Shown here: positions 1,321 through 32,132 of the stretch, piece after piece
Position numbering within the stretch: position 1 is the first letter of the stretch
How the letters are laid out: each line of letters begins with the position of its first letter
Source: Parcubacteria group bacterium GW2011_GWC1_36_108
Lineage (GTDB): Bacteria; Patescibacteriota; Minisyncoccia; Moranbacterales; GWC2-37-73
DNA length: 64,000 bases
Reading direction: 5' to 3'
Assembly: GCA_000991245.1 (NCBI GenBank)
Contig: LBRD01000006.1
Location: 103,340-167,339 of the forward strand
Position numbers and translations under genes: made by a program
Notes under the pieces: generated by a model
The model's database searches: none
The model's input: the letters and a program-made list of their open reading frames with translations, nothing else
Told to the model about the DNA's origin: nothing

Positions 1321-1947
1321 TTATGATAATGTTTTTTCAAATTCCAAAACTTTTTCAACAATAACCTTTTTCACAACATCCCAATTTTCTAAAGCAAACA
1401 TCATGGGCATCGGATCCCCTTCAGCATCTTCAAAAAAAGTCAGGCTTTTAAGAATGTGCAACATATTATATTGAATATTATTGAATTTTTTTTCGAAAAA
1501 ATTTATCAATTCTCGCAATTCATATTTTTTCAAGAGGATGTATAAATCAATAAAATCTTTCTTGCTTCCACGCGAAGAAATCGCATCAATTTTCATTGCA
1601 GCGATGTCGCGTTCATCTGCCATTTTTACACCCTCAAATTCCACCAGGGGAAACAGTAACTCATATTCATAACGCAAGAAACTAACTTTCACTCCATCAA
1701 TTGTACAGTGCAGTGTTCCATCCTCCTCACCAACAACAACCACACTTCCAATTTCAGGTAAAAGTTTTTTCAACTCAACAGGTGAAAAATTTTCTTTTGA
1801 AAAAAAATCTAAATCAATAGATTTTCGATGCCCAAGTTCAATAGCAAGCGCTGTTCCACCAGCAAGATAAAATGATTTCAGAATGTCAATTTTTTTTATC
1901 TTTTCAAAAACGCGCATTGTTTGCTCATCGATTGTTTCGTGGTACAT
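1321..1947 (-). CDS. Nucleotidyltransferase, AbiEii/AbiGii toxin-like family
   Basis: SFYLAGGTALAIELGHRKSIDLDFF N-terminal motif typical of the AbiEii/DUF1814 NTase fold; 208 aa. Confidence 0.6.
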   Translation of the reverse strand: MYHETIDEQTMRVFEKIKKIDILKSFYLAGGTALAIELGHRKSIDLDFFSKENFSPVELKKLLPEIGSVVVVGEEDGTLHCTIDGVKVSFLRYEYELLFPLVEFEGVKMADERDIAAMKIDAISSRGSKKDFIDLYILLKKYELRELINFFEKKFNNIQYNMLHILKSLTFFEDAEGDPMPMMFALENWDVVKKVIVEKVLEFEKTLS

Positions 1948-2192
1948 AAAATTTGATCTGAGATATTAAAATACACCTTCCAAAAATTTCGTGACTTTGC
2001 ATCAAACTGATCAATTGATTTCAAGAAAATTTCACGCAAAATTTCCGCTCCATACAGTTGAAATGCCCAGTTTAAATCATCAATGTCTCCCATACTCAAA
2101 ATACGTTTAACAATAAACGTTTTATGAGTCTGCGGATCAATAGTGCCAAGATCAACATCCCAAAAAAGTGATTGTTTTTCTAGTGTCTTCAT
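1896..2192 (-). CDS. Hypothetical protein; possible cognate partner (antitoxin-like) of the downstream NTase; overlaps it by ~50 nt
   Basis: 98-aa ORF overlapping the NTase start, a typical toxin-antitoxin arrangement; no confident domain recognised. Confidence 0.3.
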   Translation of the reverse strand: MKTLEKQSLFWDVDLGTIDPQTHKTFIVKRILSMGDIDDLNWAFQLYGAEILREIFLKSIDQFDAKSRNFWKVYFNISDQILCTTKQSMSKQCAFLKR

Positions 2193-2302: not shown

Positions 2303-2929
2303 TTAAAGATTTCCCTGTTGAGAACCGTCCTCGGTTGGTGAATTTCCCTTTTTAGCGAGAACATAAAACCAATCCCTGTTATGAGCATGGAAAATACTGA
2401 CATAAAAACTAGTAAGCCCAATGTCAGTTATTTTTTTTAAAATATCTTTTTTTGTAAATTTATTGAAAATAAAGTTTTTCCGTTCTATATCATTTTTTTC
2501 TTTTTTCATAACAATAAAGCCAAAAACACCACCACAAGCCAAAATACGCTCAACCTCTAAAAGAGCTTTTTCAATGTCATCAGAAGTCAAATGCGTAAAT
2601 AAAGAAGATGAAGCCCATATTCCATTAAAATACTCATTTTGAAAATCAAGCGCTGTCATTTCCATTAAACTAAATTTTCCATTAAAATTTTTATTAGCAT
2701 AATCAATCATTTTTTCAGAAAAATCTATACCAATTCCATCAAAATTATTTTCAATAAAATAATTAACATCGCGCCCAGTTCCACTTCCGATATCCAAAAT
2801 TTTTCCTTTCTTAGGAATATATTCTAGAAATTTATCGAGCTTATCTTGCATAAGCACATCACCATTTTTTAAATATATTTCTAAATTTTCATTGTACCAT
2901 TTTTTTATTTTTGAATAAACTAATTTCAT
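2303..2929 (-). CDS. Class I SAM-dependent methyltransferase
   Basis: ILDIGSGTGRD motif I and acidic motif II (IGIDFS) of the Rossmann-fold MTases; 208 aa. Immediately downstream of the rSAM/precursor genes. Confidence 0.8.
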   Translation of the reverse strand: MKLVYSKIKKWYNENLEIYLKNGDVLMQDKLDKFLEYIPKKGKILDIGSGTGRDVNYFIENNFDGIGIDFSEKMIDYANKNFNGKFSLMEMTALDFQNEYFNGIWASSSLFTHLTSDDIEKALLEVERILACGGVFGFIVMKKEKNDIERKNFIFNKFTKKDILKKITDIGLTSFYVSIFHAHNRDWFYVLAKKGNSPTEDGSQQGNL

Positions 2930-2930
2930 A

Positions 2931-2964
2931 AAAAATAGAGGAGGAGCAAAGAGTTGCTCCTCCT
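2931..2964 (-). terminator. Stem-loop plus U-tract between the precursor peptide gene and the methyltransferase start (intrinsic terminator or attenuator)
   Basis: Minus strand reads AGGAGGAGCAA-ctct-TTGCTCCTCCT-ctattttttATG: a perfect 11-bp stem and a T-run ending at the MTase ATG (2929). Confidence 0.5.
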
Positions 2965-3011
2965 AATTAAAGTTAAATATTTCCATTATGGATTAGCCCA
3001 CCGGAGCTGAG

Positions 3012-3089
3012 CTATGTTCCACAGTTTTGACAACAAAAGGAAACGTTCTGATCCACTTGATTTTCATCAATATATATTGAAACAAACAT
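3012..3089 (-). CDS. Putative RiPP precursor peptide, 25 aa, Cys-rich C-terminus (MFVSIYIDENQVDQNVSFCCQNCGT)
   Basis: Not in the ORF track (<60 aa). Found by hand translation of the minus strand: aaaGGAGGTGAgagtcATG, a strong SD with 5-nt spacer. The ORF lies 77 nt downstream of the rSAM-SPASM stop and has three Cys in its last 8 residues. Stop is TAG at 3012-3014. Confidence 0.5.
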   Translation of the reverse strand: MFVSIYIDENQVDQNVSFCCQNCGT

Positions 3090-3165
3090 GACTCTCACCT
3101 CCTTTCATGGCGAAATATTATACTGCTACAAACCCCGTGCATCCATGGCGGACTAATAAACTTTG

Positions 3166-4458
3166 TCATGATACAAGAAACATCTTTTTGTCAAAAAGGA
3201 CTTTAAAAAATAATTCCCTGTCTTTCACTGACACGCCCTCCACATCTACCTCTTTCCAGCTGAAATACTTATTACCACTCAGTAAATTAAGAACAGTATT
3301 GTACCCAGCTTTATTAAGAAATACCAATTCATCATTATATTTCACAACACCACCAAATTCTTCCGCCCTAATTTGCACGCCTTTAACAAATTTCAGATTA
3401 TTAGGCAATTGAAAATCGAGTTGCGAGGTATTTTCTGCGAAGTTAACCTTTTCCGGTCCTGTCATCAATGGATCTTTCCCATGTATATCATTGTAGAATA
3501 TTTTTGCATCCATTCGACATCCTCCCGAACATCGCAAGAGATGTGGACAAATTCTACATTTTTCATAAAGAAAAGTTCCATCACGCCATTCCTGCATTGC
3601 AAACCAGCACTCTTGCAAAGACTTTTCAAACAAATTTCCATAGGTCATATCCGCATGAGCACATGGACGAATTGAACCATCAGGAGAAATAGAACAGTTA
3701 AATACACCGGCCGTACAATTCCTGCGAAGAAACTGTTGATATTTTTTCATATCACCAATAAAGCAAAGTGGATAGGTTTCCAATATTTCAACCCAAAGTC
3801 CCAAATCACTTTGAAGGTGCAGGAGTGCATCCATTGATTCTTTAATCTGCTGTGGTGTTGCTCTGTAATTTCTATACTCAGTATCTGGTGACGGAGCCAC
3901 TTTTGTTGCAGAAAAACGCAAAATCCCCAAGCTATGAGCCAACTTGCCTGTTTCATAAACTTGATGTGCATTTTCTTTACGCACCACCATATTTGCACTT
4001 GTTAAAACACCAGTTTCAGTCAGCATTAGAACATTAGAAAGAAGACGCTTATGAAAACCCTCACGTTGAATGATAACGTCATGAATTTCTGGTTGATGAG
4101 AAAGCAACGAAGTTAGAATGCCAACACTATTTTGATAAAAAAAGTCCGACATTTCCCTGGTAAGTAACTGCAAATTAGTATTACAATATACAACCAAGCC
4201 TAGTTCTTTTGCTTTTCGTATACCAGCCTTTAAAGTTTCTTTAAACATTAAAGGTTCACCACCAGTAAAGCATACCGACATTACTTTCCAACGCGCCAAT
4301 TCTTCCACCAATTTTTCCGCTTGACTTGGCAAAAGATGCTTAGAAACGGCTTTCTTAATATGTTGACATGCGCGATAACAATGAGTACAGACCTGGTTAC
4401 AATTGTCAGTAATTTCAATTTGCACTGATAATGGTGCACTTAAGGTTCTATATATCAT
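3166..4458 (-). CDS. Radical SAM / SPASM-domain peptide-maturase-like enzyme with ~95-aa C-terminal RRE(PqqD)-like extension
   Basis: CNQVCTHC (CxxxCxxC) radical-SAM motif and GGEPL; C-terminal SPASM cysteine array (CTAGVFNC...RPC...CW...CRICPHLLRCSGGC). Start reassigned to MIYRTLS (4458) because AAAGGAGGTGGA lies 5 nt upstream; the ORF-track start at 4500 has no SD. Confidence 0.85.
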   Translation of the reverse strand: MIYRTLSAPLSVQIEITDNCNQVCTHCYRACQHIKKAVSKHLLPSQAEKLVEELARWKVMSVCFTGGEPLMFKETLKAGIRKAKELGLVVYCNTNLQLLTREMSDFFYQNSVGILTSLLSHQPEIHDVIIQREGFHKRLLSNVLMLTETGVLTSANMVVRKENAHQVYETGKLAHSLGILRFSATKVAPSPDTEYRNYRATPQQIKESMDALLHLQSDLGLWVEILETYPLCFIGDMKKYQQFLRRNCTAGVFNCSISPDGSIRPCAHADMTYGNLFEKSLQECWFAMQEWRDGTFLYEKCRICPHLLRCSGGCRMDAKIFYNDIHGKDPLMTGPEKVNFAENTSQLDFQLPNNLKFVKGVQIRAEEFGGVVKYNDELVFLNKAGYNTVLNLLSGNKYFSWKEVDVEGVSVKDRELFFKVLFDKKMFLVS

Positions 4459-4514
4459 ATTGTCCACCTCCTTTGTGGGTTTCGTAAAATTAAAGAACAT
4501 TCATACTACGATGA

Positions 4515-4666: not shown

Positions 4667-6100
4667 TCATTTTACTGTAATGTTTTTGGTGTAGGATTCA
4701 ACGAATCCATCCTTCCACCGTTTTTCTTCGAGTTCGACGGTGGTCATTGTTGTGCCACCGATTTTGGTGCCGGAGGAAGCTTTGATGATTTTACCGTTCC
4801 AGCTGGTGGAGAAATCGTTGTTGATAACAACTTCTCCATTTGCATCTGAGACAGCACTTTGGAGCAATGGCTGCGGGAATGGCTGGATGTAATAATTCGC
4901 CGTGCCATTTTTACTGTTTGGATCAATAGTATTGGTCAGCGTTCCGAAAACTTTTACCTCGCCGACGACTGGGTTTCCAAGTGAATTGACGAGTCTCACT
5001 TTAACAACTTTTGGCAAGTTGTTAGCGATTTGCCACATATCAACCTGATGGTTAGCATTATTGGTTGCCAACCAAGCATTAAAGGGCGAGAATATTGTCC
5101 CGGTCCATAAACCTGGTTCTGTCATTGGATCTTTTGGATATAAAGCCCTAAGGCTATATGATTCCAAGATTGGGGCAACATTAGTTCGATCCTGAAAAGC
5201 AATACCATACCATTCGGGTACGCCACCCGCAAGGGTATGCATAAATTCTTGGCAAGTACTAAATATAACACTATCAAAATATGTTGGACTAAGTTTTTCT
5301 ATTTCACTTCTGCCAAGCAACACTGTCATTTCATCCTCCGCCTTATAAATGGTATAGTATTTCTTTCCATTCATAACATGACTAGTGGTAAAAGTATAGG
5401 AGTATTGCGAAGTGATATACGCGGGAATTTCGCTCCTATCCTTATATATGAAATAAACGAGTGTTGTCCCTCCGTAGGTCGGGCTGCCCGGAAAATCATT
5501 GTCATAATAATTCGACGGGTCTTCTTGAATCCCATCAAATTGGGCATTGGTATAACTCTTCACCTGCCCAACTTGATATCTTTTTGTTGTGTTCTTTGCA
5601 AAAACCGCACTAACCTCTGAGATTGCGGCTCCTGCATTTTTTACCACATCGGGATGCGCGTCATAAAAAGATTTGTTGACGAGCACAGGAATAACTTCCG
5701 GATTAAGCGCTGGCACTGGTGCCAGTTTCAAGGTTGTTACGGTCGGCGCAGAGATATTGACAACAGCTTCAAACTTTGCACTTGATCCTGCCGCATTTGT
5801 TGCGACAAGACTTGGACTGTGCGACCCAACAGCGTAAGTATGCACTGGGTTTTGTTCAGAGCTGGTTGCACCATCTTTGAAATCCCAGTACCAATTTGTT
5901 GGCGATTCTGTTGCTGTACCGTTAAACTTTGCTGTCAAGCCTGTCACCTCAACGGTAAACGAGGCTACAGGCACTTTACTTGTTACCGGTGGGGTTACTG
6001 GAGAAGAAGAATCTCCTCCACCTCCGCCACCACAAGCAGCAAAGAAAACCAGACAAACAAACAGCATTCCTAACTTCAGCCAATAAAATCTTGAGTTCAT
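4667..6100 (-). CDS. Secreted lipoprotein with PKD domain
   Basis: Signal peptide plus lipobox (LVFFAAC, then a Gly run); WYWDFKDGATSSEQNPVHTY is a classic PKD signature. Confidence 0.75.
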   Translation of the reverse strand: MNSRFYWLKLGMLFVCLVFFAACGGGGGGDSSSPVTPPVTSKVPVASFTVEVTGLTAKFNGTATESPTNWYWDFKDGATSSEQNPVHTYAVGSHSPSLVATNAAGSSAKFEAVVNISAPTVTTLKLAPVPALNPEVIPVLVNKSFYDAHPDVVKNAGAAISEVSAVFAKNTTKRYQVGQVKSYTNAQFDGIQEDPSNYYDNDFPGSPTYGGTTLVYFIYKDRSEIPAYITSQYSYTFTTSHVMNGKKYYTIYKAEDEMTVLLGRSEIEKLSPTYFDSVIFSTCQEFMHTLAGGVPEWYGIAFQDRTNVAPILESYSLRALYPKDPMTEPGLWTGTIFSPFNAWLATNNANHQVDMWQIANNLPKVVKVRLVNSLGNPVVGEVKVFGTLTNTIDPNSKNGTANYYIQPFPQPLLQSAVSDANGEVVINNDFSTSWNGKIIKASSGTKIGGTTMTTVELEEKRWKDGFVESYTKNITVK

Positions 6101-9449: not shown

Positions 9450-10247
9450 TTATTTTTCAAAACTTTCCAAATATTCTGGTAAATTCAAAATCCATTTCGC
9501 CTGCTCGGGATAAAACAAGAATCTCTCCACATCCTTTACTGCTTGAGGCAAATCACTTTTAATAGCTTGCTGTTTTAAAAATTCAATCAATTCCTTCCTA
9601 TCATTAATTGCAATCCCCTTTTCCTTAAAAATTGCATAATTTGGCTCGATATTTTTTTGACTCAAAAACCATACCAAATCATAAAAATCGCGTCCTTTTT
9701 GATAAGGACGAAAGATAATCGCTAAAATCTTTTGTGCAAAAAGCGTTTCCAGGGTATTAACCATCATTGGAAATCGCTCATTAAAACTATCAGTAAATTT
9801 TGTCTGAGTTTCAATATTTTTATATGGATTATAATCAATTTCAAATTTTACTAAAATCTTTTCATCCTTTTGACCACTCAAGCCAAATTCTCTCAAAACA
9901 TTTTTAAATCTAAAGAACACAATGTGAATATTTTGTGTAGTTTTTGTCCGAATATCAACCTGAAAACCTTGCAACTCCAACTTTTTGCTGATTTCCTCAG
10001 CCAACTTTTCCAAATCAAATTCCTCTTTTTTAATCAAATCGAAATCCAAATCTTCCGAAAAACGATTAATGTTATATGCAAAACGCAAACATGTACCACC
10101 AAGAAAAGAAAGGCTATCATTATACGCGCTAAGCGAAAGAGCTTTCAAGATTTGTGTTTGTAAATATTCCAATAAAATATTTCGCTGTTGCCAGGGAATA
10201 TTTTTTTCCTCAGCATATTTTTTGAAAAATTCTTTATTTGGCAACAT
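9450..10247 (-). CDS. AbiEii/AbiGii-family nucleotidyltransferase toxin (type IV TA)
   Basis: LSFLGGTCLRFAYNINRFSEDLDFD motif typical of the AbiEii NTase; 265 aa; overlaps the upstream AbiEi-like gene. Confidence 0.8.
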   Translation of the reverse strand: MLPNKEFFKKYAEEKNIPWQQRNILLEYLQTQILKALSLSAYNDSLSFLGGTCLRFAYNINRFSEDLDFDLIKKEEFDLEKLAEEISKKLELQGFQVDIRTKTTQNIHIVFFRFKNVLREFGLSGQKDEKILVKFEIDYNPYKNIETQTKFTDSFNERFPMMVNTLETLFAQKILAIIFRPYQKGRDFYDLVWFLSQKNIEPNYAIFKEKGIAINDRKELIEFLKQQAIKSDLPQAVKDVERFLFYPEQAKWILNLPEYLESFEK

Positions 10248-10857
10248 AATATTTAATAAAGTTGTTAGTTAAAAATAATACTTTTTTATTCTCAAATGCT
10301 TTTGCAAATTTCAAAAGTTTTTTGCCATCAAATTTAAAATCTTCATTAAAACGATAACCCTGAAATTGCTGCTGACCGCCATTTAGGATATTACGATTAA
10401 GGTATAAAAAATCAACTACGGCTTTTTCAGGTAATGCTAAATTGAATGAAACGCCATTAGTCTTTTTTGTTTCAAATCCTCCAAATGCCTCCTTTTTAAT
10501 TTTTTGATAACTAAAATTGCCCACCGGTGTTGCAAACTTTTTTGTTTTTCTTGTTGTCACGGAGGTCACAGTAAAGACAGCCTCTGGAATAATTCCGTAA
10601 AAATTCAAAGCCATTTCCATACTAATATAAGAAGGTGCATAAATTTTTGTCGCAAATTCCATCATATCAAGCTTATTTTTCATTTCAGCCACAATATAAA
10701 GACCTCTTCTAAGCATAATTAAATGGCCCTTATTGATCCAGTTTTTAAGATTAACAAGGGTAGTGCTTGTGAAATTACTGCCCAAAATAAGCCTTAATTC
10801 TTTCGTTTCAAAACACGGCAGCTCTTCAATTTTTTTCCTGAATTCAAAATAATTCAT
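10234..10857 (-). CDS. AbiEi-family antitoxin/transcriptional regulator (type IV TA)
   Basis: APSYISMEMALNFYGIIPE matches the conserved AbiEi core; gene order and 14-nt overlap with the NTase are typical of abiEi-abiEii. Confidence 0.75.
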   Translation of the reverse strand: MNYFEFRKKIEELPCFETKELRLILGSNFTSTTLVNLKNWINKGHLIMLRRGLYIVAEMKNKLDMMEFATKIYAPSYISMEMALNFYGIIPEAVFTVTSVTTRKTKKFATPVGNFSYQKIKKEAFGGFETKKTNGVSFNLALPEKAVVDFLYLNRNILNGGQQQFQGYRFNEDFKFDGKKLLKFAKAFENKKVLFLTNNFIKYYVAK

Positions 10858-29828: not shown

Positions 29829-32132
29829 ATGAAGCTAATAATCGTTGAGTCTCCTACTAAAGCAAAGACTATAACAAAATTTTTGGGTAAAGGTTTCACA
29901 GTGAAATCTTCTTTTGGTCATGTGCGTGATTTGCCAAAAAGTGGGATGGGGGTGGATATTGAAAAAGATTTCACACCAAGCTATGAAATTCCAGACAAAG
30001 CGCGCATCAAGGTGGCTGAACTTTTGAAACTCTCCAAGAAAGCTGATGAAGTTATTCTAGCTTCCGATGAAGACCGCGAAGGAGAAGCGATTGCTTGGCA
30101 CTTGGTTGAAGCGTTAGGATTAGATAAGAAAAACAAAAAACCATATTCTCGTATTGTTTTTCATGAAATTACAAAAAATGCAATTTTGAAAGCATTAGAA
30201 ACTCCGAGAGAGATAGATATAAATTTGGTTGACGCTCAGCAGGCACGGCGCGTGCTTGATCGATTGGTTGGATATGAACTTTCTCCATTTTTGTGGAAAA
30301 AAATTCGTCGCGGACTTTCCGCTGGACGCGTGCAATCAGTAGCGCTGCGCTTTATTGTTGAGCGCGAACGAGAAATTCAAGCTTTTGTTGCTGAAGAATT
30401 TTGGACAATTTCTGCCAAACTTCACCCTGTTAAATCCGGCGGGGTCGCCGGTGCGAAGCAATTTAACAGGGTGAAAAAAGAAAAAACTAACGATGAATTT
30501 GAAGCCAATTTACTGGAGCAAAATGGAGAAAAAATTGAACAAACCATCACGTTAAAACTTTTTACCGGAGATTATAAAACCAAAAAAAGTGTCATTGCCA
30601 ACAAGAAAACAGCCGAGCAGATTACCAGTGAACTCAAAGATGCGAAATATCAAGTTTTGTCAGTTGAGAAAAAAGAAACGATGCGAAGTCCTTCCGCCCC
30701 TTTTACTACTTCGACTTTGCAACAAGCTGCCATCAGCAGTTTTGGTTTTTCAGCCAAGCAAACAATGATGACGGCGCAAAAACTTTATGAAGAAGGTTAC
30801 ATCACATATATGCGAACTGACAGTATGAATCTGTCATTGGAATCTTTAATGAGCGCAAAAAAAATAATTGAAAAAGAATTTGGTAAAAATTATTCATTGG
30901 AAAGTCCTCGCTATTTCAAAACAAAATCAAAAAGCGCGCAAGAAGCTCACGAAGCTATCCGTCCAACTGATCCGGAAAAAACTCCTGATGAGCTGATGCC
31001 GCTTTTGGAAACCAATCAATACAAATTATACCGCCTCATTTGGAACCGAATGATTGCTTGCCAAATGCAAAACGCAAAATTAAATTCTGTTAAAGCTGAC
31101 ATCGAAGCTGCCGGAAAGAAAAATAAATTCTTGCTGCGAGCATCTGGCTCAACCGTTGTTTTTGATGGTTTTTTGAAAGTATACGAAAACAGAGCGGCGC
31201 AAGCTGAATCATTTTTGCCAGAACTAAAAAAGGGAGATCCGCTTTCTGCTTTGGAGGTTTTGCCATTGCAAAAATTTACCTCTGCCCCACCACGATATAA
31301 TGAAGCAACATTGGTTAAGGTTTTGGAAGAACACGGAATTGGCCGACCTTCAACTTATGCACCAACCATTTCAACTATTATTGACCGCAAATATGTTGAT
31401 AAAAATGAAGATAAGAGATTGTTTCCTCTGGAAATTGGTTTTCCAGTTAATGACCTTTTGGTTGAGCATTTTCCAGAAATTGTCGGCATCGATTTTACTG
31501 CAACTATTGAAAAAAGTTTTGATGAAATTGCCGAAGGAAACAAGCCTTGGGTTCCGGTAATTCGAGATTTTTATGGACCATTTCACAAATTGCTTGAAGA
31601 AAAAACTGACAGTGTCAAAAAAGAAGATTTGGTGGAAAAACTTGATCGACCCTGCCCTACTTGCGGAGCAGAATTAGTTATGAAATTTGGACGCTTTGGA
31701 AAATTTATCGCTTGCAGCAATTATCCAACTTGTAAATATACTGAAAAAACCGACAGTGAAAAAAAGGAGGATGAAGAAAATTCCGGGGTTATTTGTGACA
31801 AATGTGGAGCACCAATGGTTGTCAAACGCGGAAGATTCGGTCCATTTTTGGGTTGCTCAAAATATCCAGAATGCAAAAACATTATGAATATTGAGAAAAA
31901 AACCGGAGTTAAATGTCCCAAGTGTCAAAAGGGAGATATTATTGAACGCAAATCCAAAAAAGGCAAGATGTTTTATGGTTGCAACAAATATCCAGCTTGT
32001 GACTTCGTGATGTGGAACAAGCCTACGGGAGAAATGTGTCCATCTTGTGGACAACCACTTGCTTTTGCTGCCAAAGGAAAAACCAAATGCTCAAACAAGG
32101 AGTGTGGAAAAACATTTGACGCAAAAGAATAG
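29829..32132 (+). CDS. topA: DNA topoisomerase I
   Basis: MKLIIVESPTKAKTI TOPRIM N-terminus; C-terminal CxxC...CxxC zinc-ribbon repeats; 767 aa. Confidence 0.95.
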   Translation: MKLIIVESPTKAKTITKFLGKGFTVKSSFGHVRDLPKSGMGVDIEKDFTPSYEIPDKARIKVAELLKLSKKADEVILASDEDREGEAIAWHLVEALGLDKKNKKPYSRIVFHEITKNAILKALETPREIDINLVDAQQARRVLDRLVGYELSPFLWKKIRRGLSAGRVQSVALRFIVEREREIQAFVAEEFWTISAKLHPVKSGGVAGAKQFNRVKKEKTNDEFEANLLEQNGEKIEQTITLKLFTGDYKTKKSVIANKKTAEQITSELKDAKYQVLSVEKKETMRSPSAPFTTSTLQQAAISSFGFSAKQTMMTAQKLYEEGYITYMRTDSMNLSLESLMSAKKIIEKEFGKNYSLESPRYFKTKSKSAQEAHEAIRPTDPEKTPDELMPLLETNQYKLYRLIWNRMIACQMQNAKLNSVKADIEAAGKKNKFLLRASGSTVVFDGFLKVYENRAAQAESFLPELKKGDPLSALEVLPLQKFTSAPPRYNEATLVKVLEEHGIGRPSTYAPTISTIIDRKYVDKNEDKRLFPLEIGFPVNDLLVEHFPEIVGIDFTATIEKSFDEIAEGNKPWVPVIRDFYGPFHKLLEEKTDSVKKEDLVEKLDRPCPTCGAELVMKFGRFGKFIACSNYPTCKYTEKTDSEKKEDEENSGVICDKCGAPMVVKRGRFGPFLGCSKYPECKNIMNIEKKTGVKCPKCQKGDIIERKSKKGKMFYGCNKYPACDFVMWNKPTGEMCPSCGQPLAFAAKGKTKCSNKECGKTFDAKE

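What the first reader, a model, noticed from the sequence alone, without database searches (positions are those of the whole stretch)
3012..3089. 25-aa peptide gene missed by ORF calling, with strongest SD in the neighbourhood
The ORF track has a >=60-aa cutoff. Hand translation of the 235-bp gap between the rSAM and MTase genes shows ATG at 3087-3089 preceded by GGAGGTGA with a 5-nt spacer, encoding an acidic/polar N-terminal region (candidate leader) and FCCQNCGT tail (candidate core). A strong SD on a tiny ORF in a genome where many genes lack clear SDs argues for high-level translation, as expected for a precursor peptide.
Basis: seen in the sequence. Interest (0 to 1): 0.8.

Follow-up and report, generated by a model that had tools for sequence, protein, structure and literature searches.

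The report
Unannotated radical-SAM precursor peptide gene
A real but never-annotated 25-codon gene lies between a radical-SAM enzyme gene and a methyltransferase gene in an uncultured Moranbacteria (CPR) genome; it is conserved in related bacteria and most likely encodes the cysteine-rich peptide that these enzymes turn into a small modified product of unknown structure.

Summary
On the minus strand, ATG 3089-3087 opens a 25-codon ORF (MFVSIYIDENQVDQNVSFCCQNCGT, stop 3014-3012). It follows AAGGAGGTGA (3104-3095) with a 5-nt spacer, the longest Shine-Dalgarno (SD) match among 52 start sites in the window.

The ORF and SD alone are within chance. Comparison is what settles it:
- All 15 distinct loci encoding a homologue of the upstream radical SAM/SPASM enzyme carry a small Cys-containing ORF: directly downstream in 13, after a peptidase gene in one, directly upstream in one.
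- 13 of 15 have the same SD, and most have a hairpin terminator after the ORF.
- Synonymous sites are saturated and non-synonymous sites are not (pN 0.07-0.22). Variable columns by codon position are 6/5/20.
- The conserved features are a leader motif, Φ-x-[ST]-[ILV]-Φ, and a core, [N/D]-x-x-F-C-C-Q-x(G)-C.
- The enzyme's C-terminal 72 residues fold as an RRE (leader-binding) domain.
- A methyltransferase follows in 9 of 11 FCC-type loci.

No Pfam, NCBIfam or Rfam model and no paper found covers the peptide or the enzyme subfamily. The 25-aa forms are absent from 15 billion predicted proteins.

Verdict: a genuine precursor peptide gene of an undescribed, CPR-restricted radical-SAM RiPP family. 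The chemistry (probably thioether cross-links plus methylation) is inferred.

The parts
4465..4473 (-). Shine-Dalgarno AAGGAGGTG of the radical SAM gene, 6 nt before ATG 4458
   Evidence: Sequence read. It is the second-longest SD match in the window.
3166..4458 (-). Radical SAM/SPASM peptide maturase, 430 aa. It starts at M15 of the longest ORF, 4500..3166. CX3CX2C is at C20/C24/C27. Seven invariant SPASM-region cysteines are C232, C248, C266, C301, C304, C310 and C314.
   Evidence: Pfam Radical_SAM 1.7e-15, SPASM 5e-06 and Fer4_12. It scores below the curated cutoff of every NCBIfam model. 100% identical to P0001, named as from Candidatus Moranbacteria GW2011_GWC2_37_73. AF2 pLDDT is 92.6. 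Nearest solved folds are SkfB, SuiB, anSME, CteB and PqqE.
3169..3384 (-). C-terminal RRE-like (PqqD/winged-helix-like) domain of the maturase, residues 359-430. This is the proposed leader-binding site.
3117..3122 (-). Perfect TATAAT hexamer 28 nt upstream of the peptide ATG. It could be the -10 of a separate peptide promoter. Weak evidence.
   Evidence: Sequence read. No acceptable -35 was found by the scan, and it is not visibly conserved in L002 or L011.
3095..3104 (-). Shine-Dalgarno AAGGAGGTGA of the peptide gene, with a 5-nt spacer to the ATG
   Evidence: It is the longest SD match in the window. AAGGAGGTG(A)-type SDs are conserved upstream of the orthologous ORF in 13 of 15 loci.
3012..3089 (-). 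Precursor peptide gene, 25 codons plus TAG: MFVSIYIDENQVDQNVSFCCQNCGT
   Evidence: Orthologues are listed. pN is 0.07-0.22 against pS 0.54-1.1, and variable columns by codon position are 6/5/20. ORF nucleotide identity is 65-83%, against 16-60% for the upstream spacer.
3072..3089 (-). Leader recognition motif M-F-V-S-I-Y. The family consensus is Φ-x-[ST]-[ILV]-Φ.
   Evidence: A regular expression finds the motif in 22 of 24 family peptides, and the other two carry the variants TVSIF and FDTLF. It is also present in the distant precursors of L015, L016, L017 and L018, whose cores differ.
3015..3047 (-). Proposed core, N15-V-S-F-C19-C20-Q-N-C23-G-T25. The family consensus is [N/D]-x-x-F-C-C-Q-x-(G)-C.
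   Evidence: CC is invariant. F precedes CC and Q follows it in 23 of the 27 CC occurrences counted, one of which is the internal QCC of L012 and not a core. N, D or E sits at -4 in 25 of the 26 real cores.
2930..2964 (-). Intrinsic-terminator-like hairpin: an 11-bp perfect stem (AGGAGGAGCAA/TTGCTCCTCCT), a 4-nt loop and a T-run that ends directly at the MTase ATG.
   Evidence: RNA fold -29.7 kcal/mol, z = -4.3. A hairpin plus T-run follows the peptide ORF in most loci.
2303..2929 (-). Class I SAM-dependent methyltransferase, 208 aa, the proposed tailoring enzyme
   Evidence: Pfam Methyltransf_25 6e-17. Below all NCBIfam cutoffs. A homologue lies directly downstream of the peptide in 9 of 11 distinct FCC-type loci, at 29-68% identity.

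Best explanation
Window 3089..3012 (-) is a genuine, translated gene for a 25-residue precursor peptide. It belongs to a three-gene RiPP cassette, maturase-precursor-methyltransferase, in a Moranbacteria (CPR/Patescibacteria) genome.

Proposed mechanism:
1. The precursor is translated efficiently from its near-perfect SD (inferred).
2. Its N-terminal strand motif FVSIY pairs with the edge strand of the C-terminal RRE domain of the radical SAM/SPASM enzyme encoded just upstream (inferred).
3. This places the C-terminal core N-V-S-F-C-C-Q-N-C-G-T in the active site (inferred).
4. The enzyme cleaves SAM reductively, abstracts a hydrogen atom from a core residue, and uses its auxiliary Fe-S clusters to form a new bond at the cysteines (inferred).
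5. The most likely chemistry is one or more Cys-S-to-carbon thioether cross-links of the sacti- or ranthipeptide type. The conserved Asn/Asp four residues before the first Cys is a candidate acceptor (inferred).
6. The downstream class I methyltransferase then adds a methyl group (inferred).

Shown here: the gene is under purifying selection as a protein. It co-occurs with this enzyme subfamily in every locus examined. The enzyme has the rSAM motif, the SPASM cysteines and an RRE-fold domain.

Inferred: translation level, leader binding, the chemistry, the methylation site, and the product's role.
For: Presence and position.
- A small Cys-containing ORF with the leader motif sits next to the rSAM homologue in all 15 distinct loci. 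These span rSAM identities of 78% down to 31%.
- It is immediately downstream in 13 loci, after a Peptidase_MA_2 gene in L015, and immediately upstream in L016.

Coding signature.
- pS is 0.54-1.1 against pN 0.07-0.22. Variable columns by codon position are 6/5/20.
- Ser17 uses TCC, TCT, TCA and TCG; Cys uses TGT and TGC.
- The variable third positions fall on second positions of the antisense ORF 3014..3091, which excludes the plus-strand reading.
- The ORF is as conserved as the MTase coding sequence and more conserved than both flanking spacers.

Expression signals.
- The SD AAGGAGGTG(A) is conserved in 13 of 15 loci, and a hairpin plus T-run follows in most.

Conserved peptide features.
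- Leader motif in 22 of 24 peptides by regular expression, variants in the other two.
- CC invariant; F before and Q after CC in 23 of 27 CC occurrences counted; N/D/E at -4 in 25 of 26 cores.
- Two precursors carry duplicated cores, as many RiPP precursors do.

Enzyme.
- Radical_SAM plus SPASM; invariant CX3CX2C and seven SPASM-region Cys.
- Nearest solved relatives are peptide maturases: SkfB 1e-32, PqqE, SuiB, CteB, anSME.
- The C-terminal domain is an RRE fold.

Partner genes.
- An MTase homologue follows in 9 of 11 FCC-type loci.
- HExxH putative Zn-peptidases are adjacent in six other loci.

Precedent for the chemistry.
- Asn and Asp are documented thioether acceptors in rSAM products: NxxcA Cys23-Asn20, and freyrasin Cys-Asp (PMC8326336).
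Against: - There is no direct evidence of transcription, translation or modification.
- The rSAM scores far below the curated cutoff of every characterised maturase family in NCBIfam, for example PapB 65 against 340, SkfB 53 against 300, AlbA 50 against 850. Its chemistry therefore cannot be transferred by homology.
- The window holds no protease or exporter gene near the cassette, and no homologue of the HExxH proteins seen elsewhere. A secreted, leader-cleaved product is therefore not supported here.
- The third Cys, and the Asp that follows it in many cores, are not universal. L007 has CCQTTGR and L006 ends at FCCQ.
- The MTase is absent from two FCC-type lineages.
Confidence: 0.8

Rival explanations
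1. The peptide is a precursor for the rSAM enzyme, but the product is an intracellular peptide-derived cofactor or thiol/metal ligand, on the logic of PQQ or mycofactocin. It is not a secreted natural product.
For: - At 25 aa it is the size of PqqA-type cofactor precursors (own knowledge).
- The modified motif is at the extreme C-terminus.
- MftC and PqqE are among the better NCBIfam and PDB hits.
- The window has no protease or exporter next to the cassette.
- The hosts are reduced-genome CPR bacteria.
Against: - Scores against MftC (75 against cutoff 265) and PqqE (68 against 381) are no better than against heme- or thioether-forming enzymes.
- The family is rare and patchy: about 68 enzyme clusters and about 14 peptide clusters in billions of proteins. 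That is unlike a core cofactor.
- Cores vary widely in the distant members (CDxCDx repeats, C-x7-C), and some precursors have two cores. That is typical of secondary-metabolite RiPPs.
- HExxH peptidases accompany six loci.
- No partner oxidoreductase is conserved.
Confidence: 0.12
2. The ORF is a ribosome-mediated attenuation leader peptide. Tandem Cys codons followed by a terminator would sense Cys-tRNA supply and control the downstream gene.
For: - Two adjacent Cys codons and a third nearby lie close to the end of a very short ORF. A strong intrinsic terminator follows 48 nt after the stop.
- In two lineages (L004/L008 and L013) the next gene is cysteinyl-tRNA synthetase.
Against: - Conservation is at the amino-acid level over the whole peptide (FVSIY, DQN, SF, Q, G), with pN well below pS. 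It is not confined to the regulatory codons.
- The ORF travels with the rSAM gene, not with any particular downstream gene. It lies upstream of the rSAM in L016 and is followed by unrelated genes elsewhere.
- The hairpin that overlaps the stop codon in the window does not compete with the terminator. It rests on a 10-nt insertion absent from L002, L005 and L011.
- In L013 cysS has its own TATAAT after the terminator.
- A methyltransferase has no obvious reason to be Cys-regulated.
Confidence: 0.04
3. The ORF is a chance ORF in a non-coding spacer, such as a 3' UTR, an sRNA or the 5' UTR of the MTase. The SD-like sequence is fortuitous.
For: - ORFs of 20-30 codons are common. Four overlap this gap.
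- GGAGGTGA is expected about once per window by chance.
- No gene caller has ever reported the 25-aa peptide.
Against: - Frame, length, SD and amino-acid sequence are conserved across loci whose synonymous sites are saturated.
- There is a 3-periodic substitution pattern.
- No Rfam family comes close to its gathering score.
- Longer orthologues of 37-60 aa are called as proteins in several data sets.
Confidence: 0.02
4. The peptide is made but not modified. It would be a small Cys-rich metal- or Fe-S-binding partner of the enzyme, which acts on a different substrate.
For: - CCxxC and CCxxxC resemble metal-binding motifs.
- The best NCBIfam hits of the enzyme include heme-modifying NirJ and AhbD.
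Against: - The enzyme carries an RRE-fold domain, whose known role is binding precursor-peptide leaders.
- The peptides share a leader-like motif while their cores diverge. That is the pattern expected of substrate peptides.
- NirJ and AhbD scores are far below cutoff (106 and 85 against 500).
Confidence: 0.02

Closest known systems
Ranthipeptides NxxcA/NxxcB (Streptococcus orisratti) and freyrasin PapA/PapB (Paenibacillus polymyxa)
   Same: - An rSAM/SPASM maturase with an RRE acts on a short precursor whose core has Cys close to Asn or Asp.
- In the known systems Cys-S is linked to the beta-carbon of Asn (N-x-x-C) or Asp (C-x3-D) (PMC8326336).
- Here N, D or E sits 4 residues before the first Cys in 25 of 26 cores.
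   Different: - The PapB model scores 65 bits against a cutoff of 340.
- The spacing is N-x3-C-C with an invariant vicinal Cys pair, followed by Q.
- The RRE is fused to the C-terminus of the enzyme.
- The precursor lies downstream of the enzyme.
- A methyltransferase is a conserved partner.
- The hosts are CPR bacteria.
- The cross-link itself is unproven.
Sactipeptide systems: SkfA/SkfB, subtilosin AlbA, CteA/CteB and the SCIFF family
   Same: - SkfB is the best solved-structure match by sequence (1e-32) and by fold. CteB is also among the top hits.
- The substrates are Cys-rich peptides, and the enzymes have SPASM or twitch auxiliary clusters.
   Different: - All curated models score far below cutoff: SkfB 53 against 300, AlbA 50 against 850, StsB 58 against 625.
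- In those enzymes the RRE is N-terminal (own knowledge). Here it is C-terminal.
- SCIFF precursors have six Cys in about 45 residues. This one has three in 25, and no NCBIfam precursor model hits it.
PqqA/PqqE/PqqD and mycofactocin MftA/MftC/MftB (peptide-derived cofactors)
   Same: - A very short precursor (PqqA is about 23 aa, own knowledge) is modified at a C-terminal motif by an rSAM/SPASM enzyme that needs a PqqD-type RRE.
   Different: - Scores are below cutoff (PqqE 68 against 381, MftC 75 against 265).
- There is no Glu/Tyr or Val-Tyr motif in the core.
- The RRE is fused, not a separate protein.
- No PqqB/C or MftD/E/F equivalents are present.
- Cores are variable across the family.
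Weak terminator after the structural gene in lantibiotic operons (e.g. nisA, epiA; own knowledge)
   Same: A hairpin terminator lies directly after the precursor gene and before a tailoring gene. This could give a high ratio of precursor to enzyme transcript.
   Different: - Here the main maturase gene lies upstream of the precursor.
- Only the MTase lies beyond the hairpin, and its ATG abuts the T-run.
- Read-through is not demonstrated.

Membership tests
Radical SAM-dependent RiPP system (general kind) | Enzyme with the CX3CX2C radical SAM cluster motif | tested here: met
   Pfam Radical_SAM 1.7e-15. C20, C24 and C27 are invariant in 57 homologues.
Radical SAM-dependent RiPP system (general kind) | SPASM or twitch auxiliary Fe-S domain | tested here: met
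   Pfam SPASM 5e-06, above its gathering score. Seven invariant Cys (C232, C248, C266, C301, C304, C310, C314) include CX2CX5CX3C.
Radical SAM-dependent RiPP system (general kind) | RiPP recognition element (PqqD-like fold), fused or separate | tested here: met
Radical SAM-dependent RiPP system (general kind) | Short precursor gene adjacent to and co-conserved with the enzyme, with a conserved leader and core | tested here: met
   15 of 15 distinct loci. Purifying selection. Motif counts.
Radical SAM-dependent RiPP system (general kind) | The peptide is actually modified by the enzyme | not testable with these tools
   Needs co-expression and mass spectrometry.
Sactipeptides / ranthipeptides | Cys sulfur to alpha- (sacti) or beta/gamma-carbon (ranthi) thioether cross-link | not testable with these tools
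   There is only an indirect hint: conserved Cys, plus N/D/E at -4, which are known acceptor residue types (PMC8326336).
Sactipeptides / ranthipeptides | Maturase belongs to a characterised thioether-forming family (PapB, SkfB, AlbA, StsB) | tested here: not met
   All score far below the curated NCBIfam cutoffs: 65 against 340, 53 against 300, 50 against 850, 58 against 625. The same holds for distant family members.
[quoted passage not shown] | Precursor of about 45 aa with six conserved Cys, matching the NCBIfam precursor model | tested here: not met
   25 aa with three Cys. No NCBIfam hit at E of 1 to 10 for this peptide or ten relatives.
PQQ / mycofactocin cofactor pathways | PqqE or MftC equivalog and the characteristic precursor motif (E-x3-Y; C-terminal V-Y) | tested here: not met
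   PqqE 68 bits against a cutoff of 381, and MftC 75 against 265. The core is FCCQNCGT.
Ribosome-mediated attenuation leader peptide | Regulatory codons, plus alternative antiterminator and terminator structures conserved upstream of the regulated gene | tested here: not met
   Tandem Cys codons and a terminator are present. No competing antiterminator is predicted, and the post-stop hairpin is not conserved. Conservation covers the whole peptide at the amino-acid level. The downstream genes differ between loci.

The most novel reading that the evidence does not exclude
The invariant vicinal Cys-Cys pair is the substrate of a radical SAM reaction that is not one of the known sacti- or ranthi-type thioethers, which would make it a new cross-link or heterocycle. 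The methylated product is kept inside the cell, since the window has no protease or exporter, and serves reduced-genome CPR bacteria as a peptide-derived thiol, metal or redox cofactor.
Probability: 0.12. Interest if true: 0.85.

Novelty: new member of a known kind. Interest (0 to 1): 0.55.

Why it matters
- **Annotation.** A conserved gene is invisible to standard annotation. The 25-aa form is absent from 15 billion predicted proteins. Without it, the neighbouring radical SAM enzyme is labelled only 'MoaA/NirJ family Fe-S oxidoreductase'.
- **Biology of CPR bacteria.** Recognising the peptide turns two orphan enzymes into a defined three-gene RiPP cassette. CPR/Patescibacteria are usually regarded as having almost no secondary metabolism.
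- **Tractability.** The cassette is about 2.2 kb, with a 25-residue substrate and a leader of about 14 residues. It is a very small test system for leader recognition by a C-terminally fused RRE and for radical chemistry on a Cys-Cys motif.
- **Possible role.** The product could bear on how these episymbiotic bacteria interact with hosts or competitors.

Tried and rejected
- **Peptide against Pfam and NCBIfam.** No hits for the 25-aa peptide or ten relatives, even at E of 1 to 10.
- **Rfam on 2800-3300.** Only sub-threshold chance hits.
- **C-terminal domain against Pfam.** No PqqD hit. The profile against PDB sequences gave only weak winged-helix hits such as SelB and MecI. The RRE assignment therefore rests on the predicted fold.
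- **Metagenome scan with the 57-sequence alignment.** It failed because no stretch was conserved enough. A 16-sequence alignment gave six loci. L010 was a marginal partial hit and was not used.
- **Representative-library search.** Two spurious repeat proteins, P0091 and P0097, plus P0096, which was not inspected, were discarded.
- **Second copy in the window.** The pattern TTYTGYTGYCAR gave one other match, at 32063. It is out of frame inside a 728-aa gene.
- **PADLOC.** Only the generic rSAM core matches prokaryotic viperins (residues 10-166), which gives no support for a defence role.
- **Literature.** Seven full-text searches found nothing on this family: CPR or Patescibacteria with radical SAM, RiPP, ranthipeptide or SPASM; 'FCCQ'; and radical SAM with C-terminal RRE and SPASM.
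- **Attenuation-leader and antisense-ORF readings.** Both were considered and rejected, as set out under the rival explanations.
- **Leader and RRE co-folding.** Not possible, because chimeric or multi-chain inputs are not accepted.

Full report
**1. The observation**

Reading the minus strand gives aAAGGAGGTGAgagtcATGTTTGTT... The ATG is at 3089-3087 and the stop TAG at 3014-3012. The product is MFVSIYIDENQVDQNVSFCCQNCGT, 25 aa.

GGAGGTGA (3102-3095) is unique in the 64-kb window. With its flanks it makes a 10-nt match to the anti-SD complement, 5 nt from the ATG. I surveyed 51 long ORFs, taking the best SD among the first six candidate starts of each. 45 had matches of 5 nt or fewer, and the runner-up at 9 nt was the radical SAM gene just upstream. 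'Strongest SD in the neighbourhood' therefore holds.

Taken alone, neither the ORF nor the octamer exceeds chance. Four ORFs of 20 aa or more overlap this gap, and the octamer is expected 0.9 times.

**2. Context in the window**

- *Upstream gene.* 4458..3166 (-) encodes a 430-aa radical SAM/SPASM protein. It is identical to a protein of Candidatus Moranbacteria GW2011_GWC2_37_73 annotated only as 'MoaA/NirJ family Fe-S oxidoreductase'.
- *Downstream hairpin.* A perfect 11-bp hairpin with a T-run lies at 2964..2930.
- *Methyltransferase.* Directly abutting the T-run is a 208-aa class I SAM methyltransferase, 2929..2303.
- *Curated models.* Neither enzyme reaches the curated cutoff of any NCBIfam model.
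- *Flanks.* The cassette lies between a PKD-domain lipoprotein gene and AbiE-type toxin-antitoxin pairs.

**3. Comparative test**

The enzyme has 79 relatives at E of 1e-10 or better. Those that carry a name are all from Patescibacteria/CPR, including Vampirococcus. I recovered DNA for 15 distinct loci, counting the window, through.

- *Position.* In 13 loci a small ORF ending in a Cys motif lies 4-76 nt after the enzyme's stop codon. In L015 it follows an intervening Peptidase_MA_2 gene. In L016 it lies immediately upstream of the enzyme gene.
- *Close orthologues.* These are 25-27 aa, for example MFVSIYIGENKADQNISFCCQSCGT and MFVSIYIDEDKADQNVSFCCQTCGT.
- *More distant orthologues.* They have longer leaders but the same tail, for example ...TVSIFKDDRGGNTKNASFCCQSGCDA.
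- *Further members.* A profile search of 5.8 billion proteins, and an exhaustive search of 1.84 billion representatives, added about a dozen more. All are unnamed or 'hypothetical'. Two have duplicated cores.
- *Gene calling.* The 25-aa forms themselves are absent from the 15-billion-protein collection. They have never been called as genes.

**4. It is coding**

- Among the four 25-aa orthologues, synonymous differences are saturated (pS 0.54-1.1) while pN is 0.07-0.22. Variable columns fall 6/5/20 on codon positions 1/2/3.
- Those variable positions would be second positions of the antisense ORF 3014..3091, which excludes the plus-strand reading.
- Length differences are multiples of three.
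- The ORF is 65-83% identical at the nucleotide level. The neighbouring MTase coding sequence is 58-87% identical. The spacer between the enzyme gene and the SD is only 16-60% identical.
- The SD AAGGAGGTG(A) is retained in 13 of 15 loci, and a hairpin plus T-run follows in most.
- No Rfam family explains the region.

**5. Anatomy of the peptide family**

- *Leader motif.* The N-terminal part carries Φ-x-[ST]-[ILV]-Φ (FVSIY, FVTIF, LESIF, FTVVF, FVSLL). A regular expression finds it in 22 of 24 peptides, and the other two have close variants. It is shared even by distant members whose cores are different: the CDxCDx repeats in Vampirococcus, and C-x7-C in L015. This is the pattern expected of a leader recognised by a common binding domain.
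- *Core.* The consensus is [N/D]-x-x-F-C-C-Q-x-(G)-C-x-x.
  - CC is invariant.
  - F precedes CC and Q follows it in 23 of the 27 CC occurrences counted. One of the 27 is the internal QCC of L012 and is not a core.
  - N, D or E is at -4 in 25 of the 26 real cores.
  - The third Cys is frequent but not universal.

**6. The enzyme**

- CX3CX2C and seven SPASM-region cysteines are invariant in 57 homologues.
- By sequence and by predicted fold (pLDDT 92.6), the nearest solved structures are the peptide maturases SkfB, SuiB, CteB and PqqE, together with anSME.
- After the SPASM domain come about 100 further residues. The last 72 fold with pLDDT 90 into three strands followed by helices.
- Sequence methods see only weak winged-helix similarity, so the RRE call is fold-based.
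- The RRE sits at the C-terminus. In SkfB, SuiB and CteB it is N-terminal (own knowledge).

**7. Partner genes**

- A homologue of the window's methyltransferase follows the peptide in 9 of 11 FCC-type loci.
- The two FCC-type lineages without it have cysS next instead. In L013 cysS has its own promoter-like TATAAT.
- Putative HExxH zinc peptidases are adjacent in six loci and are candidates for leader removal. These are three mutually homologous proteins in L001, L011 and L018, a Peptidase_MA_2 in L015, a DUF2268 in L012, and an HExxH protein in L016.
- The window has no homologue of any of these.

**8. Mechanism**

*Shown.* There is a protein-coding, co-inherited peptide gene. The enzyme has an rSAM cluster motif, SPASM cysteines and an RRE fold. 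A methyltransferase is a conserved partner.

*Inferred.*
- The leader strand docks on the RRE.
- The core cysteines are cross-linked by radical chemistry. The most likely product is a thioether to a nearby carbon, with the conserved Asn/Asp at -4 a plausible acceptor. The analogy is to NxxcA (Cys-Asn) and freyrasin (Cys-Asp) (PMC8326336).
- The MTase adds a methyl group at an unknown site.

Because every characterised maturase model scores far below cutoff, the chemistry cannot be assigned by homology and could be new.

How the MTase is transcribed is open. Its ATG abuts the terminator's T-run in five loci. Either the hairpin is leaky, or a promoter sits just 5' of it, where there is a conserved AT-rich stretch at window 2980..2965.

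**9. Rivals**

- *Chance ORF or non-coding RNA.* Excluded by section 4.
- *Cys-sensing attenuation leader.* The tandem Cys codons, the terminator and the two cysS neighbours suggest this reading. It is disfavoured for three reasons. The whole peptide is conserved at the amino-acid level. The ORF follows the enzyme and not any particular downstream gene. No conserved antiterminator exists.
- *Cofactor-like intracellular role.* Not excluded, since the precursor is small and the window has no exporter or protease. Against it are the family's rarity, its variable and duplicated cores, and the peptidases in other loci.

**10. Novelty and verdict**

The logic is well known: an rSAM/SPASM-RRE enzyme with a Cys-rich precursor. 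Neither the peptide family nor the enzyme subfamily is covered by Pfam, NCBIfam or any paper found in the searchable literature.

Its distinguishing features are these:
- a 25-residue precursor with a leader of about 14 residues;
- an invariant vicinal Cys pair;
- a C-terminally fused RRE;
- the gene order enzyme, precursor, terminator, methyltransferase;
- restriction to CPR bacteria.

I classify it as a new member of a known kind.

Noticed in passing
window 1321-2192 (-) and 9450-10857 (-): Two AbiE-type toxin-antitoxin modules flank the region holding the cassette: AbiEii with DUF6922, and AbiEi with AbiEii. This may mark a variable or mobile stretch of the genome.
   Followed up: partly
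L004/L008 4718-6226; L013 4032-5456: In the two FCC-type lineages that lack the methyltransferase, the gene after the peptide and its terminator is cysteinyl-tRNA synthetase. Their rSAM proteins are only 47% identical to each other. This could be old synteny or a functional link to cysteine. It is unexplained.
   Followed up: partly
window 2930-2980 (-); L002, L005, L011, L009 equivalents: The methyltransferase ATG directly abuts the T-run of the hairpin, with no SD and no room for a promoter in between. A conserved AT-rich stretch (TTAAATTTTAAT-like, window 2980..2965) lies just 5' of the hairpin. The choice between read-through and a promoter upstream of the hairpin is unresolved.
   Followed up: partly
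L006 2805-2960: The precursor stops at TAG exactly where the orthologue P0087 has Gln (FCCQ*CDMTNDIMKDAPKN...), and the downstream frame stays intact. It could be a nonsense variant, a sequencing error or stop read-through.
   Followed up: no
P0080, P0092 (metagenomic proteins): These precursors have two tandem cores after one leader (AAFCCQCGCDA ... NASFCCQTGCDR).
   Followed up: no
L001 6555-7217; L011 2699-3241; L018 4105-4815; L015 3904-4683; L016 3893-4771; L012 5465-6130 (-): HExxH putative zinc peptidases lie next to the cassette in six loci. Three are mutually homologous, and the others include DUF5700, Peptidase_MA_2 and DUF2268. They are candidate leader peptidases. The window has none.
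   Followed up: partly
L012 4616-5404; L017 4128-4916: Homologous 262-aa proteins with no Pfam hit (30% identity, E 1e-27) accompany the cassette in two distant loci.
   Followed up: no
L016 2193-2420 (Candidatus Vampirococcus lugosii, code 25): This distant family member has its precursor upstream of the enzyme gene. It has the same GFVSLF leader motif but a Cys-Asp repeat core (SCDSCDYCDNCDLCDACDCDNTPCDS), reminiscent of the Cys/Asp repeats of freyrasin.
   Followed up: partly
window 3117-3122 (-): A perfect TATAAT lies 28 nt upstream of the peptide ATG, inside the spacer between the rSAM gene and the peptide gene. It could be a separate promoter for the precursor. There is no good -35, and it is not visibly conserved.
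   Followed up: partly
window 4667-6100 (-); L018 1-2353; L015 5816-6407: PKD-domain surface or lipoprotein genes neighbour the cassette in three loci. This may simply reflect how common such genes are in CPR genomes.
   Followed up: no
L013 1242-1310 (+): A DUF3800-IX RNA (Rfam RF02968, 54.7 bits, above its gathering score) lies about 1.2 kb upstream of the rSAM gene.
   Followed up: no
L002 1-237: This is the 3' end of a second radical SAM/SPASM gene, 2.7 kb upstream of the family member in that genome. It appears unrelated because it has no C-terminal RRE extension. No Cys-rich small ORF follows it.
   Followed up: partly
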